From Chloropicon primus (taxonomy: Eukaryota): a stretch of DNA of 64,000 nucleotides. Below are positions 11,675-63,179 of the stretch, in pieces. The stretch is from the NCBI GenBank assembly GCA_023205875.1, contig CP060771.1, positions 310,001 through 374,000 on the forward strand, read 5' to 3'. The translations under genes were made by a program, and so were the position numbers. How positions within the stretch are numbered: position 1 is the stretch's first letter; each line of letters starts with the position of its first letter. Below the pieces are notes generated by a model, which was not told where the DNA came from, ran no database searches, and was given only the letters and a program-made list of their open reading frames with translations.

Positions 11675-12776
11675 CCCGATGGCGTGTCGAATAATCCGAA
11701 AATATTGTGAACAGCTTACCTAGGAGGATGAGTACCCTTCGATGTATTCACTGAAGAAAGATGCAGAGAGGGGATCCACTCGATGTTTCAAACTTGAACC
11801 GGAGCCCTTTCCATCGCGCTGCTTGCGCTTGATGCCCCTCGCTCTCCTTCTGAAGACACCTTTGTGCCATCACGAGACAGACAGACGAAGAATCAGATCA
11901 CTTCATCAGTTTTTTTTTATCCTCTCCAGACCACCAAATCTTTCTTGAGACCATTCGTTCGAAAGAGGAGAGAGCGATGCTTTCTATTGTCGCAACGAAC
12001 GTCGTATTCGGCCTCGTCACCGTCGTCCTCGCCGTGGTAACGGACCTATTCCTCCTCTCCCTCTCTCTCTGTCCTCCGCTGCCTCTTGAGCTGTGAGCCG
12101 TACGATCCCAAATTTGGAATGCCAAATTTTTCATTTGGCGTCCAATTGACCTCTTGATCAAGGGGGGGGAGGTTGAAGCGCCAGGCTTCTTCGAAGGAAC
12201 ATTGAAGAGCGAGGAGCTTGAAGGCGGCAAAGAGGGCATATTTGATCACTCGTACGTCTCCAGATCTTTCGAAAGAGCTCTCACTCGAGTGTTTTGACGC
12301 AGGGAGTGATCCACGACGAGGAATTTGGGTGGTGAGCCGAGGTGGGAGAGGAAGGGGGCGAAGGTGCTCCGTGTAGGGGGCAGGAGGGAGTCCAAGGAGT
12401 GATCAGGGGGCCTAGGGCTGGCCTGAGGCGCTGATCTCTTCGATTCTCTGCTTCGGTTTGGTTTGTTTTGACCTCTGTGAACCAGAAGCTCTTGAATACC
12501 GAGAGTTGACAACCTGGAAGGGAGAGAAAGATACTTTTGTTTTCAGGACAGGAACTCAGGTTTGCCGTGGAATCGAAGGCGGAGGACGGGCCAGAGGTAT
12601 GGTGGGCGCCTGTATCAGAGGTATCGTGAACGGTGTCAAGAGCTGTGCATCGAAGGTATGCAAGTGTGCTTGCTGCGGAGCTCAGTGTGTCGTATGCTAA
12701 GCCTTGGTTCTGACAGAACAGCGCAAGAGTAAGGGGGGAACGGGCTCTTTGGACAGAGAGAGAGGGAGGGAGGGAG

Positions 12777-15001
12777 ATGGAGAGCCTTTTGACCGATGAG
12801 AGCTCGCCGGTTTGGGTGGTGAGGTACATGAGCGAGAAGGAGGCGGATACGCTCATCGAGCTGTGCACTAGGAAACTCGAGGAGCACGTTCGGACGGGAG
12901 ATGAGGAACTGGAGTTCAAGCACTCCTACCGAGCTCTGCTCTTGAGGGCAACGGCATACGTCAAGAGAGGGAAGTTTCACTTGGCCCTCGAGGATTACAA
13001 TGCCATGCTGCGGTACAACCCAAACAACACGGACGTTCTATACAACAGGTAGGCAACGAAGACTTTTTGTGTTTTGGATGGCTGTGTCTTGGAACTCAAA
13101 CTGGAACTGGACTGACTGGGGCCCTTGTCTCCCTTCCCTTTCGCAGAGGCATCGCTTACGAGAAAGTTGGACGGATCGATGATGCCATCATTGAGTTCAC
13201 CAAAGTACTTCAGCTTGAGCCTGATCACCTGAACGCCGCGTACGCGAGAGCTGCTTGCCAGAACTTGCGTGGCGAGTTCGAGGACGCCATCGATGATTAC
13301 ATGAGAGCCCTCCAACTGGAGCAGAAGCAAGCGCCAGTCAATGGGGTGTACACCCCAGTGAGCGGAGTGAGGAGACAAAGGAGCAGCAAGGACTTGGCGG
13401 AGGAAGAGGGGAAGGCGCCAGCAGGGAATGAGAGCGAGGACGATGACATCAAAGCGAAGGCCAGCCTGATCGCGCAAGAGACGTCGAAATTTGTGGAAGA
13501 GGAGAACAACGCTGCTCACGGGCACAGCAGCAGTCCACAAAATCGATTCGGTGGGCTGGACCCTGCCCTAGGGGCCTCGGAAGGAGATGCGATCCCCAGA
13601 GATACTCCGGCAACGGTGAAGGTGAAGCTGTCGCTCTCCAGGGATCTTGACGTGGTGACCTCGAGCGCGAGTCCTGATGCCATGGATCAAGCTGCCGAGA
13701 AGGACTTTTCGACCAAGAGTCCCGAAGGGGAACTCACGGCGGACGATTGGTACAAGAAGGGCCTGCAAAGCAGGAGGACAAAGAATTTCAAAGCCGCGAT
13801 TCAGGAATACACCCAAGTCATTCTTTTGGACCCTGGGCACTTCAGGGCGTACTTCGACAGGGCCTTCTCGTTCGACAAGCTTGGGCACACGGAAAAGGCG
13901 GTCGCCGATTACACGAACGCGATACAGATCAACACGACGAATGCGAACTCGTATTACAACCGAGGCATCGCCCACGACAAGATGCAGATGTACGAAAAGG
14001 CTATCGCTGACTTCACTTCCGCGATTGAGCTCGATCCAACGAACGCGGACTTTTACCACAACCGCGGATTCTCGTGCAGGAAGCAGGGCAAGTTCAACTT
14101 GGCCTTGGAGGACTACATGGAGGCCATCAGGAGGAACCCAGATCACAGCAGAGCGTACTACAACCGGGCGTTTGTTTTGGAAAGGCTTGGGAACTTCCAG
14201 GAGGCGATCAAAGATTACACGACGGCCCTGGAGCTGGAACCGAGAAATGCGATCGCCTTGCACAACCGCGGTGTGCTGTACGAAAGGCTGGGGCACATCG
14301 AGAAGGCAAATGCTGACTACTCCACCGCCATCATCCACGACCCAAAGTCGGCAATCTCGTACCACGCGAGAGCCATCTTGAACGCGAACAGGGGCGCGGA
14401 GGACGCGGAGAATGATTTCGACATCGCCATATCGATCGAGCCGAGCAACCACTTGTACATCAAATCCAGGGCAACGTACAACAAGGAGAAGGGGCGTTAC
14501 GAGGACGCGATCAAAGATTACACGAAGGCCCTTGAACTGCAACCGAGCGACTTGCAGTGCGTGACGAACCGTGCGTACTCTAACAGAAAGCTGGGAAGGC
14601 ACGAGATGGCGATAGAGGACTACACCAGAGCGATATCCTTGCAGCCAAAGAATGCCGGCCTGAGAAGCAATCGAGCCTATTGCTACGCGAACATCGAGAA
14701 CTTCAAAGACGCGATCAGGGACTACAGGTTCGTCCTCAGCGCCCAGCCAAACAACGCCAGGGTGTACCACAATCTCGGAATTGCGCTGGAGAGGGAGAAC
14801 CAGCTCGAGGAGGCCAAGCTGTGTTTTGACAAGGTCATCAACCTCGATCCGAAGAACGCGTCGGCGTTTTTCATGAGAGGAACGATCTGTGACAAGCTCA
14901 AGCTCGTTGACAAGGCCATGCAGGACTACTCCAAGGCCCTGAAACTCGAGAAGGACCATCAAATCCCAAAACAGAAGAACGTTTCGATCGAAAGCCAGTG
15001 A
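12777..15001 (+). CDS. Tetratricopeptide-repeat protein (intron 13049-13146)
   Basis: Many 34-aa TPR units (YYNRG...AIADFTSAIELDP); GT-AG intron joins ORFs in frame (YNR|GIAY). Confidence 0.88.
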
Positions 15002-15248
15002 CACCCTCCGGTGATCAGCATTCTTTTTTATGTAATAATCTTGTAAGTAGCAAGCACCAAAATTGGAAAGAGCAAAAAAACTATGAAGATACCATGCCAC
15101 CAGGCACCACTGGCGTCGCCCTCAAACGCCCTCATCGCCTTCATCGCTTTGTGCAGTTCTTCCATCGTGTGGCACTTTGGCGAGGAATTGCATTCATGTC
15201 GCGTCCTAGTAATTACCCAGTAATCTAGTAGTCGCTTCAGCAATTTGA

Positions 15249-15818
15249 TCACATTTCCTCCTCGCTGCTGCTGAAGTCTTCCTCGTCGTCTGATCCTCGG
15301 TTCTCCTCAATCCACTCGGCGACGTCATAATGCTCGTACTCCTCTGCCCATTCTATGCACTCCACAAAGTCCCAAGGGCAAGGCGGATCTTGACTGCGAA
15401 GCCACATGAGAATATCAAGCCGACCTCCTCTAGCTGCTGCTTCACAAGTCCGCTCTGCCCAAGGGCAAGGCGGGTCCTGGCTTCGAGCCCACTGCAGAAC
15501 ATCAAGGTGACCTCCTCTAGCTGCTGCTTCACAAGTCCACTCGTCCCAAGGGCAAGGCGGGTCCTGGCTTCGAAGCCACTGCAGGGCATGAAGGTGACCC
15601 CCTTCAGCTGCATCCGTCTTCAGAGCAACCTTCTTCACAGGGTTCGCCGTCGCCGTCGTCACCACCTCAAGAAACGTCCTGCAGGTCAAACCAAAACCAA
15701 GGTGATCGTAATCGTCCAACTTCTTCACGACCAGGACCCGCGCACTCCCTGGCAAAACCTCCAACGCATGCTTGGCCTCCATTCTCCGCCTCTTGCTCGC
15801 TCCCCTCGTCACCGCCAT
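15249..15818 (-). CDS. Short F-box-like + ankyrin-like repeat protein
   Basis: Three 27-aa repeats GGHLDVLQWARSQDPPCPWDEWTCEAAA; N-terminal FGLTCRTF segment; acidic tail. Confidence 0.75.
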   Translation of the reverse strand: MAVTRGASKRRRMEAKHALEVLPGSARVLVVKKLDDYDHLGFGLTCRTFLEVVTTATANPVKKVALKTDAAEGGHLHALQWLRSQDPPCPWDEWTCEAAARGGHLDVLQWARSQDPPCPWAERTCEAAARGGRLDILMWLRSQDPPCPWDFVECIEWAEEYEHYDVAEWIEENRGSDDEEDFSSSEEEM

Positions 15819-62271: not shown

Positions 62272-62577
62272 GGTGGCGAGGCCTCGACCAAAGCAAGACA
62301 AGAGCCTCTTCCTTGGCAGTCACAGCCACACGCAGGCAACAACGAGTAGAGAAAAGCAAACGTTTTAGCACCTCCAAGGCTCCCATTGTCGTCGATGGCT
62401 TCAAGCAAGGCGTCTCCAGAACCTTTACGAGATGATAATTCCGTCACCATTCCCCTCGCTCCCCTCGCTCCCCCTCCTCTGTCGCTAACTCCTCCATGAA
62501 GACTCACCTCAAAGGCCTTCTGCTGCCTCCTTCCTCGCTCTAACTCAAACCCTCGGCCACTCCGGTCGTCAAAACCG

Positions 62578-62877
62578 GCAAGTGAGGGCTCTTTGGAAAG
62601 ATCGCGAGACACTCTTTTGCCTCGTACCCTTCACTCGAGCACTTCCTGACGATACCTCCCTCTGCTTCACCCGTTCGTCGCCATGACTCGGTCCTCTCGG
62701 TCCAAAATACAACTCTTTCAACACCTTATCCAAATGATCCAAATCGGCCACTCAGTGGCTCCGTTGGAAACAGGTGAGTTCATCGATGGTTCACGCGCGA
62801 GGGAGGAAAATTCAGCGACGATGCGGTGCACAGAGCGACGCGTCTCGTCTTGATCTTTCGAACGAGCCTTCTCTTGC
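62578..62877. promoter_or_regulatory. Inverted pair of the 23-bp promoter motif (3D protein / CHLG divergent promoter)
   Basis: gcaagtgagggctctttggaaag ... ctttcgaacgagccttctcttgc, outer span 300 bp. Confidence 0.7.
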
Positions 62878-63179
62878 GAAGAATGGCGTCCTGTGGAAGT
62901 TTTGACACTGACCAGAAGATTGGGTTTGATGCCGTCTGCCTTTGGTTTGTTCCTGGCCACATCAATAGGTACGTCGCCGCCGAGGCGAGGGGCGGAGAGA
63001 GTAGAGAGTACCGCAGTCATCGTCGTTATGTCTTGCTCTTTTGAATGACCGGTCGGTTGAAGGGAACGGCCGAGGTTTGAGGATTTTGTCCCACTGAAAC
63101 CGAAATGCTTTCGTCTGATTCTTGTTCCGAGGAAGGAGGCCAAGGGCACCGAGGGCACCGAGCGAGGGAGTGAGGAACG

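What the first reader, a model, noticed from the sequence alone, without database searches (positions are those of the whole stretch)
11943..63060. Orientation-specific ~23-bp motif marking 5' regions of many unrelated genes
Seen: a degenerate element, sense consensus (GAT)CTTTCSAnnGAnnCCTYRnTYGA (commonly CTTTCGAAAGAGCCCTCRCTTGA). Forward copies precede plus-strand genes: 12266, 16328, 18844, 23381, 23562, 26388, 26566, 26743, 30426, 36223, 52523, 52706, 58348, 62855, 63038. Reverse copies precede minus-strand genes: 11943, 15886, 16064, 18367, 18564, 22926, 23103, 35944, 43165, 43348, 51872, 52248, 58060, 62401, 62578. Some copies are degenerate. I saw none between convergent genes. The genes are functionally unrelated. 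Inference: a lineage-specific core-promoter or chromatin element rather than a regulon-specific site; I know no description of it.
Basis: partly seen in the sequence, partly recalled or inferred. Interest (0 to 1): 0.9.

Follow-up and report, generated by a model that had tools for sequence, protein, structure and literature searches.

The report
Repeated 5′-leader module, often an intron
The motif is real and strictly gene-oriented, but it lies in the transcribed 5′ leader of a small green alga's genes, inside ~180-bp modules of which one is shown and about half are predicted to be spliced out as 5′UTR introns, so it likely acts downstream of the transcription start and not as an upstream core promoter.

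Summary
The element is about 60 nt long and is the conserved core of a ~180-bp module.

Fifteen modules have a GT donor 59-92 nt upstream of the core (GT at -80 to -85 in 10). One is shown spliced: a 186-nt GT..AG intron in RNA-like contigs. The 15 modules without a donor are strongly depleted of sense ATG (5 observed, 41.9 expected; antisense normal), as 5′UTR exons are. Two of them are retained in RNA contigs. The motif is therefore transcribed, not an upstream promoter element.

Spacing is quantised: same-strand neighbours are 177-197 bp apart (10 of 11) and divergent pairs have a median of 278 bp. The flanks are random in sequence but the donor-to-core length is fixed.

My best reading is a lineage-specific (Chloropicon-like), promoter-proximal leader signal that works from intron or exon, like intron-mediated enhancement or a chromatin-phasing element, on an introner-like scaffold. 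The function is inferred. I found no description in print.

The parts
11943..11965 (-). Motif copy (weak core), inside the RNA-supported intron of the starch-synthase gene leader
   Evidence: held-out E 0.088
11860..12045 (-). 186-nt GT..AG 5′UTR intron that contains copy 11943. Donor lies 80 nt before the core and the acceptor 82 nt after it
   Evidence: joint 11857->12044, skips 186, CT..AC cut +2, one X1 contig; the X4 loose end at 11861 matches 12048
12266..12288 (+). Motif copy, no donor, predicted 5′UTR exon (no sense ATG from -147 to +333)
15886..15908 (-). Motif copy, no canonical donor, distal copy of a tandem pair (178 bp from 16064)
16064..16086 (-). Motif copy, promoter-proximal, no GT between -100 and -60
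16328..16350 (+). Motif copy retained in contiguous RNA-like contigs (X1, X2, X4). No donor and no upstream ATG before the start codon at +117
18367..18389 (-). Motif copy, distal in a pair (197 bp from 18564). Only a weak GTGACG at -82
18564..18586 (-). Motif copy with GAG|GTGAGTTT donor at -82, predicted intron 18471-18668
18844..18866 (+). Degenerate motif copy of ambiguous class. GTATGA at -86, not ATG-depleted, and an X1 contig begins at 18868
22926..22948 (-). Degenerate motif copy retained in contiguous RNA-like contigs (X1, X2, X4); no donor
23103..23125 (-). Motif copy, proximal, no donor. Shares a ~117-nt block (-20 to +97, about 90% identity) with copy 58060
23381..23403 (+). Motif copy, proximal, no donor. 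The ATG-free stretch runs to the next donor at about +89
23562..23584 (+). Motif copy with GTGAG donors at -92, -84 and -76, predicted intron 23478-23657
26388..26410 (+). Motif copy of the GATTGATACC subtype, first of a triple array. Near-identical tandem duplicate of 26566
26566..26588 (+). Motif copy, second of the triple array (178 bp period)
26743..26765 (+). Motif copy, third of the triple array (177 bp), no donor
30426..30448 (+). Degenerate motif copy with GAG|GTGAGTTT donor at -81; the acceptor is uncertain
35944..35966 (-). Motif copy, no GT between -100 and -60. The first downstream ATG (+85) is the TyrRS start, so it is predicted to be a 5′UTR exon
36223..36245 (+). Motif copy. The first downstream ATG (+156) is the gene start
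43165..43187 (-). Motif copy in predicted intron 43110-43269 of the citrate-synthase leader
43348..43370 (-). Motif copy in predicted intron 43283-43451. A 13-nt exon separates it from the next intron
51872..51894 (-). Motif copy in predicted intron 51806-51953 (GTAAGT donor at -59)
52248..52270 (-). Motif copy (GATTGATACC subtype), no donor, sense ATG-free, 376 bp from 51872
52523..52545 (+). Motif copy in predicted intron 52442-52632. Its acceptor AG abuts the next donor
52706..52728 (+). Motif copy in predicted intron 52633-52808
58060..58082 (-). Motif copy with GTAAG donor at -83
58348..58370 (+). Very degenerate copy (not found by the held-out profile). No donor. ATG of PDH E1-alpha at +142
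62401..62423 (-). Degenerate copy in predicted intron 62312-62507 (GAG|GTGAGTCT donor at -84)
   Evidence: (E 0.18)
62578..62600 (-). Motif copy, proximal, no canonical donor. ATG-free until the next donor at about +93
62855..62877 (+). Motif copy in predicted intron 62774-62968. Its acceptor AG abuts the next donor
63038..63060 (+). Motif copy in predicted intron 62969-63131 (GTACGT donor at -69)
12091..12099 (-). Central GGCTCACAG element between divergent copies. The X1 spliced contig reaches exactly to 12099
16182..16190 (+). Central GGCTCACAG element
36055..36063 (-). Central GGCTCACAG element
52371..52379 (-). Central GGCTCACAG element

Best explanation
The motif is the conserved ~60-nt core of a sense-oriented, ~180-bp module in the transcribed 5′ leader of genes in a Chloropicon-like green alga; one module is shown and about half are predicted to be spliced out as 5′UTR introns, the rest are inferred to stay in the 5′UTR exon, and the core likely works as a position-dependent promoter-proximal signal at the DNA or nascent-RNA level, not as an upstream core promoter. 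Shown: the copies, their orientation and spacing, the donor at a fixed offset, one spliced intron, two retained copies, and ATG depletion limited to modules without a donor. Inferred: transcription starts near the centre of the divergent regions, about 100-140 nt upstream of the first core, around a central GGCTCACAG element. The first module then occupies roughly +40 to +225. Arrays of 2-3 modules arise by tandem duplication, and one recent duplicate is visible. Because the core is kept whether the module is intron or exon, selection most likely acts before or independently of splicing. A bound factor would mark or phase the first ~180-bp units of the transcribed region, as a chromatin or transcription-boosting signal comparable to plant intron-mediated-enhancement signals, which also work from introns or 5′UTR exons but only downstream of the TSS.
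For: Copies and orientation. Intron anatomy: GTRAG occurs at -81 to -85 from the core in 10 of 30 copies and at -73 to -92 in 13 of 30, with a branch-like ACTGAA near +58 and an acceptor near +105. Splicing shown: the joint 11857->12044 removes 186 nt with GT..AG ends around copy 11943 in an X1 contig, and an X4 loose end gives the same junction. The same runs also splice an ordinary 81-nt intron (20318-20398), so they behave as RNA. Retention shown: contigs run unbroken through the donor-less copies 16328 (3 runs) and 22926 (3 runs). Two classes: donor-less modules have 5 sense ATG against 41.9 expected (0 of 2000 shuffles as low), while antisense CAT is 25 against 22.7. Donor-bearing modules have 36 against 45.1. 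ATG-free leaders extend about 128 to more than 280 nt upstream of donor-less proximal cores. Constraint: among 11 donor-bearing units, pairwise identity is 0.64 in the core and donor, but 0.28 in the 5′ flank against 0.30 for shuffles, while the donor-to-core distance stays at 80-85 nt. Spacing: same-strand neighbours are 177, 177, 177, 178, 178, 181, 183, 183, 183, 197 and 376 bp apart; divergent pairs are 264-323 bp apart, median 278 (positions). Three coding-region introns lack the motif. Analogy: TTNGATYTG stimulates expression from introns, 5′UTR and coding sequence, but only downstream of the TSS (abstract of bioRxiv 10.1101/269852).
Against: Only one window is available and no whole genome. 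Only one copy has a splice junction, and in one contig plus one 14-nt loose end. The runs are on record only as guessed RNA. An X1 contig starts at 18868, 2 nt after copy 18844, and contigs of the next gene stop 32-46 nt after copy 23103. Those two observations would fit transcription starting just downstream of the motif at these loci. Acceptors were placed by eye, and predicted intron lengths spread from 148 to 208 nt. My donor class rests on a simple GT rule. No function was tested. The resemblance to the IME motif is limited to GATCT-like letters. No relatives' DNA could be fetched, so conservation across species is unknown.
Confidence: 0.6

Rival explanations
1. The modules are decaying copies of an introner-type mobile intron or transposon that happened to land in 5′ leaders. 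The core is simply its slowest-decaying part and has no present function.
For: This is a repeated intron-like family, sense-oriented, of about 180 nt with its own donor, branch and acceptor signals. There is subfamily structure: the GATTGATACC subtype at 26388, 26566, 26743 and 52248. There is one recent tandem duplicate (26388/26566; 0.95-0.97 identity). One dispersed pair shares a ~117-nt block at about 90% identity (23103/58060). Introner families are known in green algae (passages of PMC4815162; PMC9860276).
Against: Flank identity is at the random level while the core, the donor and the donor-to-core distance are kept. That is not what neutral decay gives. Half of the copies have no donor and sit in ATG-free exons. 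All 30 copies are in leaders and 0 of 3 coding-region introns carry the core. I detected no terminal inverted repeats above shuffles in 12 of 12 units and no target-site duplications. The divergent-pair spacing is fixed at about 278 bp.
Confidence: 0.15
2. The core acts at the RNA level. It would be a binding site in the nascent or mature leader for an RNA-binding protein, for example an intronic splicing enhancer for unusually long leader introns, or a translation or stability element in the 5′UTR.
For: Strict sense orientation (30 of 30). The core is always transcribed, by inference. The purine-rich sense flank (0.68-0.78 purine from -100 to -20) looks like a splicing-enhancer composition. 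The distance to the donor is fixed. Leader introns (about 150-200 nt) are longer than the 81-nt and ~110-nt coding-region introns seen here.
Against: Half of the copies are not in introns, so a splicing role cannot be general. Half are removed from the mRNA, so a role in the mature mRNA cannot be general either. There is no conserved secondary structure (alifold gives none; mutual information only between neighbouring columns). The ~178-bp period is kept between donor-less copies (23103/22926, 16064/15886, 26566/26743), and the ~278-bp divergent spacing is a property of the DNA.
Confidence: 0.15
3. One reading: an upstream core-promoter element that fixes the start site just downstream of itself. 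Each module would then be an alternative promoter.
For: An X1 contig begins at 18868, 2 nt after copy 18844. Contigs of the gene behind copy 23103 end at 23057-23071, within 46 nt of the motif. The copies flank divergent intergenic centres symmetrically.
Against: Copy 11943 is inside a spliced intron whose upstream exon reaches at least 134 nt upstream of the core. Contigs start at least 52-100 nt upstream of copy 16328 and run through copy 22926. Sense ATG depletion starts at least 75-130 nt upstream of donor-less cores. A donor sits 81 nt upstream of half the copies.
Confidence: 0.05

Closest known systems
Introner elements (repetitive spliceosomal introns) of Micromonas and other algae
   Same: A family of related, sense-oriented spliceosomal introns with recognisable internal motifs, repeated in many unrelated genes of a marine green picoalga. 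Partial and degenerate copies are common (passages of PMC4815162).
   Different: Here only the core and donor are conserved and the rest is at random-level identity. All 30 copies are in 5′ leaders and none is in a coding-region intron. Half have no donor and are exonic. I saw no TIR or TSD. Arrays have 0-13-nt 'exons' between units. A published survey scored Chloropicon primus as having no introners (Supplementary Table 4 of PMC9860276).
Intron-mediated enhancement signals of plants (TTNGATYTG)
   Same: A short sequence enriched in promoter-proximal introns that works only downstream of the TSS and also from 5′UTR or coding exons without splicing (abstract of bioRxiv 10.1101/269852). That matches the intron-or-exon, leader-only distribution seen here.
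   Different: The sequence is different and much longer (about 60 nt against 9). Here the position and period are fixed, whereas IME signals are dispersed. No expression effect has been tested.
Sequence-specific nucleosome-phasing or barrier factor sites (yeast general regulatory factors, Drosophila Phaser); recalled, not looked up
   Same: A motif at a fixed distance from the promoter centre, repeated at about one nucleosome repeat length (~180 bp).
   Different: Those sites usually lie in the nucleosome-free region, are not strictly oriented with transcription and do not form arrays. No chromatin data exist here.
Classical core-promoter elements (TATA, Inr, DPE)
   Same: Orientation-specific and found at many unrelated genes.
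   Different: Those lie within about 40 nt of the TSS. This core lies roughly 100-140 nt downstream and recurs at +300 and +480. It is transcribed and often spliced out.

Membership tests
Introner elements | The copy lies within a spliceosomal intron that is removed from the mRNA | tested here: inconclusive
   1 of 30 copies shown spliced. 15 of 30 have a donor at -59 to -92. 2 of 30 shown retained, and 15 of 30 lack a donor and are ATG-depleted like exons.
Introner elements | Sequence similarity along most of the intron among many copies | tested here: not met
   Pairwise identity is 0.64 in the core and donor but 0.27-0.34 in the flanks, against 0.26-0.30 for shuffles. Only 2 pairs have extended similarity.
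Introner elements | Insertions spread through gene bodies, including coding sequence | tested here: not met
   30 of 30 copies are in 5′ leaders. 0 of 3 recognised coding-region introns carry the core. No profile hit in coding sequence. One window only.
Introner elements | Transposon hallmarks (terminal inverted repeats, target-site duplication) in the DNA-type families | tested here: not met
   In 12 of 12 delimited units the inverted match of the termini is no longer than in shuffles, and no flank duplication is seen. The acceptors were placed by eye.
Introner elements | Same orientation as the host gene | tested here: met
   30 of 30.
IME-type promoter-proximal signal | Located downstream of the TSS and within about 1 kb of it | tested here: met
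   RNA contigs and sense ATG depletion place the cores in the transcribed leader, 68-640 nt before start codons. The TSS itself is not mapped.
IME-type promoter-proximal signal | Acts from introns and from exons, independent of splicing | not testable with these tools
   The distribution (15 donor-bearing, 15 donor-less) is compatible. Activity was not measured.
IME-type promoter-proximal signal | Raises mRNA accumulation | not testable with these tools
   Needs reporter or deletion experiments.
IME-type promoter-proximal signal | Carries the TTNGATYTG motif | tested here: not met
   The consensus nnGATCTTTCGAA shares only the GATCT-like letters. 13 of 30 copies have GATC at the junction (read).
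   the upstream exon or leader reaches at least 75-134 nt upstream of the core at the informative copies. 2 contig ends near copies 18844 and 23103 go the other way.
Nucleosome-phasing element | Fixed register with nucleosome positions | not testable with these tools
   Only the spacing (177-183 bp in 9 of 11 same-strand neighbour pairs; about 278 bp across divergent centres) is suggestive.
Structured RNA (Rfam family, snoRNA) | Conserved secondary structure or a family match | tested here: not met
   No Rfam hit at gathering thresholds in the window. No consensus structure in the 30 copies.

The most novel reading that the evidence does not exclude
A picoalgal genome builds most of its promoters from a standard cassette: a central start element flanked on each transcribed side by one to three ~180-bp leader units. 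Each unit carries a sequence-specific, oriented box that a dedicated factor reads to phase the first nucleosomes or license elongation. The units are interchangeable between intron and exon status, which would make them a domesticated introner-like family acting as a general downstream promoter element.
Probability: 0.3. Interest if true: 0.85.

Novelty: new variant of a known kind. Interest (0 to 1): 0.7.

Why it matters
If this holds genome-wide, more than half of the genes of an ecologically important marine picoalga would share a modular leader with a long conserved box at fixed distances. That would be a compact natural system for asking how sequences downstream of the start site control transcription or chromatin. 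It would also show how repeated introns and regulatory elements convert into each other.

It has practical value too. The published Chloropicon annotations that I read in passages do not mention UTRs, promoters or such motifs. These modules could therefore improve gene models and supply parts for expression constructs.

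Tried and rejected
Whole genome: none is held for this window, so no genome-wide scan was possible.

Rfam: no family at gathering thresholds.

Relatives' DNA: the motif scan of metagenome contigs gave 10 loci. All are single matches of the core only, without the flanking conservation, in contigs of 39-65% GC, so I took them as chance. The viral contig scan gave 0. 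Cross-species conservation is therefore unknown.

Earlier scan notes: nothing.

RNA runs: no RNA holder is listed on record. The four holders are guessed RNA. In the second, several stretches had no cover (12274-14208, 18466-18852), which says nothing.

The loose end at 15819 (3 runs) coincides with an AG|G just before a start codon, but its other side is not in the window. The gene is a multi-copy repeat protein with depths up to about 6000 and a repeat-skipping joint. I did not use it.

RNA structure: no consensus structure, no pair-like covariation, and whole-unit folding z-scores scattered from -3.2 to +3.6.

TIR and TSD: none.

Box C/D-like TGATGA...CTGA strings downstream of some cores are not conserved across copies and have no Rfam match.

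Resemblances recalled from memory and not pursued: E2F-like TTTGGCGC and bZIP-like TGACG in the +27 to +35 part (only some copies); heat-shock-element-like TTCGAA (wrong spacing); a U12 branch-site-like CTTGAC (wrong distance to the shown acceptor, and a U2-type donor); GATC/ApT 6mA marking of linkers near algal TSSs (only 13 of 30 copies have GATC).

Literature searches that found no description: the literal motif (5 papers hold the string, and the 4 listed are on unrelated subjects); Chloropicon plus intron; Chloropicon plus introner; Chloropicophyceae plus UTR plus intron; UTR introns, green alga and motif; introner and nucleosome-linker papers.

Full report
1. What the window is

The window is eukaryotic and gene-dense, with about 56-57% GC. 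Most ORFs are long and uninterrupted. They encode starch synthase, citrate synthase, FtsH, TyrRS, an RWP-RK factor, a kinase and others. The citrate synthase is 65-67% identical to plant glyoxysomal enzymes and 87% identical to unnamed marine sequences. One of those clusters contains a protein named Chloropicon roscoffensis. A supplementary table of PMC9860276 lists C. primus at 57.5% GC. I therefore treat the source as a Chloropicon-like (Chloropicophyceae) green picoalga. No whole genome is held for the window.

2. The observation

These cover 19 of the 30 listed positions.
- All 30 positions show a recognisable copy.
- Conservation extends from about -15 to +45 around the 23-mer: gTCTCnnGAT-CTTTCGAAnGAGCCCTCgCTTGA-nnnaTTTGgCG.
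- A profile built from the 19 strong copies alone recovers 8 of the 11 held-out degenerate copies at E<0.01. Two are marginal (11943, 62401), one is missed (58348), and nothing else in the 64 kb reaches that level.
- A profile of all 30 adds a single weak site upstream of a TatA-like gene.
- No copy lies in coding sequence or between convergent genes.
- All 30 copies point toward a gene start on the same strand. They serve 19 of my 32 rough gene models.

3. Spacing

Same-strand neighbours are 177, 177, 177, 178, 178, 181, 183, 183, 183 and 197 bp apart, plus one pair at 376 bp. The innermost copies of the eight divergent pairs are 264-323 bp apart, with a median of 278 and six of the eight at 275-288.

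4. Intron anatomy

- In the citrate-synthase leader, the sequence reads as two tandem units: GTGAGT, a purine-rich stretch, the core, ACTGAAG, a pyrimidine tract and CAG. A 13-nt exon separates them, and the start codon follows about 60 nt later.
- Across the 30 copies, GTRAG peaks sharply at -81 to -85 from the core (10 copies), with 13 copies at -73 to -92.
- An alignment of 15 units shows a conserved GAG|GTGAGTTTG, the core, a TGAGGAtTTTG...ACTGAA stretch, and a pyrimidine-rich end with an AG.
- Twelve units could be delimited. They are 148-208 nt long, median about 183.
- In four tandem pairs the acceptor AG directly abuts the next donor GT (52523/52706, 62855/63038, 23381/23562, 62578/62401).
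- The three coding-region introns I could recognise lack the core: 81 nt (supported by RNA), about 110 nt, and about 253 nt.

5. RNA evidence

Four public runs hold the region. They are on record only as guessed RNA. They behave as transcriptomes: cover is patchy gene by gene, and they splice out the ordinary 81-nt GT..AG intron at 20318-20398 in two runs.

- In the same data a contig of X1 joins 11857 to 12044, removing 186 nt with GT..AG ends on the minus strand. That intron contains copy 11943, with its donor 80 nt before the core and its acceptor 82 nt after it.
- A 14-nt loose end in X4, from another study, matches the same upstream exon.
- Contigs of three runs run unbroken through copy 16328, and contigs of three runs run through copy 22926. 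Both copies lack a donor.
- Against a simple picture, one contig starts at 18868, 2 nt after copy 18844. Contigs of the gene behind copy 23103 stop 32-46 nt after it.
- Only 9 of the 30 copies lay in the stretch I could lay.

6. Two classes, from sequence alone

I split the copies by the presence of a donor at -59 to -92: 15 with and 15 without. Counts are for the region -75 to +85.

| Class | Sense ATG observed | Expected from shuffles | Antisense CAT observed | Expected |
|---|---|---|---|---|
| Without donor | 5 | 41.9 (0 of 2000 shuffles as low) | 25 | 22.7 |
| With donor | 36 | 45.1 | 24 | 26.6 |

- Several of the few ATGs near donor-less units are the real start codons.
- ATG-free leaders extend about 128 to more than 280 nt upstream of most donor-less proximal cores.
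- Where a donor-less unit is followed by a donor-bearing one, the first ATG appears just inside the predicted intron (23381, 62578).

Sense-only ATG avoidance is the signature of a scanned 5′UTR. Donor-less modules are therefore inferred to be 5′UTR exons and donor-bearing modules to be introns. This agrees with all three copies for which RNA contigs give a clear answer. Either way the core is transcribed.

7. Constraint

- Among 11 donor-bearing units, pairwise identity is 0.64 in the core and in the donor.
- Identity between donor and core is 0.28-0.34, against 0.29-0.30 in shuffles. Beyond +45 it is at the random level. Yet the donor-to-core distance stays at 80-85 nt.
- The 5′ flank is purine-rich on the sense strand (0.68-0.78).
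- The ~178-bp period is also kept between donor-less copies.
- Conserved islands at fixed distances in otherwise randomised sequence point to selection on the core and on the spacing, not to recent copying.
- Copying does occur. Copies 26388 and 26566 are a near-identical 178-bp tandem duplicate. Copies 23103 and 58060, 35 kb apart, share a ~117-nt block at about 90% identity.
- I found no terminal inverted repeats or target duplications, no conserved RNA structure and no Rfam family.

8. Where transcription probably starts

GGCTCACAG occurs exactly four times in the window. About 0.5 exact matches would be expected for a 9-mer on both strands; that figure is my own arithmetic. All four lie near the centre of divergent pairs, 97-146 nt upstream of the same-strand core. 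The spliced X1 contig ends exactly at one of them, at 12099. That is inference from four sites.

9. Mechanism

What is shown:
- a modular, oriented, periodic leader;
- intron or exon status that depends on the presence of a donor;
- a core conserved in both states.

What is inferred: the core acts before or independently of splicing, at the DNA or nascent-RNA level, as a position-dependent promoter-proximal signal.

The nearest functional precedent I could document is the plant IME motif. It stimulates expression from introns, 5′UTRs and coding exons, but only downstream of the TSS (abstract of bioRxiv 10.1101/269852). The ~180-bp period and the ~278-bp divergent spacing also fit a nucleosome-phasing role. 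Whether the core would sit at a dyad or in a linker cannot be told from the sequence.

Their evidence is set out in the Rival explanations section.

10. Comparison with what is known, and novelty

Micromonas introner elements are the closest structural relatives (passages of PMC4815162; PMC9860276). This family fails several of their defining features: full-length similarity, spread through gene bodies, and transposon hallmarks. Half of its members are not introns.

- A published survey scored C. primus as lacking introners (Supplementary Table 4 of PMC9860276).
- The two Chloropicon genome papers, read as passages, contain no mention of UTRs, promoters or such a motif.
- Seven literature searches found no description.
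- The supplements of the Chloropicon papers were not examined and could hold repeat lists that bear on this.

I rate it a new variant of a known kind. Its interest is high for algal genomics and for the question of how transcribed-region sequences control promoters. The limits are a single window, one splice junction and no functional test.

Noticed in passing
window 12091-12099(-), 16182-16190(+), 36055-36063(-), 52371-52379(-): GGCTCACAG occurs exactly four times in the window, each near the centre of a divergent gene pair and 97-146 nt upstream of the same-strand leader core. One spliced RNA contig ends exactly at one of them. It is a candidate start-site or core-promoter element.
   Followed up: partly
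window 3000-5792(-) and 6247-9441(-): Two tandem GH38 alpha-mannosidase genes. Internal ORFs recur at an offset of 3562 bp, so this looks like a recent tandem gene duplication. Neither has the leader motif upstream.
   Followed up: no
window 15249-15869(-): A small ankyrin-like protein with internal repeats (a recurring ...LQW.RSQDPPCPW... unit). RNA-like contigs pile up to a depth of about 6000, with many loose ends and a 241-nt repeat-skipping joint. This suggests a large, highly expressed multi-copy family.
   Followed up: partly
window 20925-21260: A ~158-bp unit (CT-repeat, AACTCATCTGTCACTGGAGGGGCT...TTCCTGAATCTTACT) appears twice in tandem between two minus-strand genes, in a promoter region that lacks the leader motif.
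   Followed up: no
window 23084-23145(-) and 58041-58102(-), extending to about +97 of each core: Two leader modules 35 kb apart share a ~117-nt block at about 90% identity that ends abruptly on both sides. This is either a recent copy or a gene-conversion event between modules.
   Followed up: partly
window 15888 and 15909: In the RNA-like contigs of other strains, the two differences in and next to copy 15886 (G>A on the plus strand) both change the copy toward the family consensus (TCGA to TTGA; GAC to GAT before the core).
   Followed up: no
window 52120-52230: The leader exon behind copy 52248 carries a long (CATCAT/CTT)n stretch. The sense strand is free of ATG while the antisense strand is full of ATG, a clear local example of sense-only ATG avoidance.
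   Followed up: partly
window 48440-48821, 45848-46353, 20912-21281: Promoter regions without the motif (FtsH/orf249 divergent pair, RWP-RK, RabGAP-TBC) are more AT-rich and look different. This may be a second promoter class.
   Followed up: no
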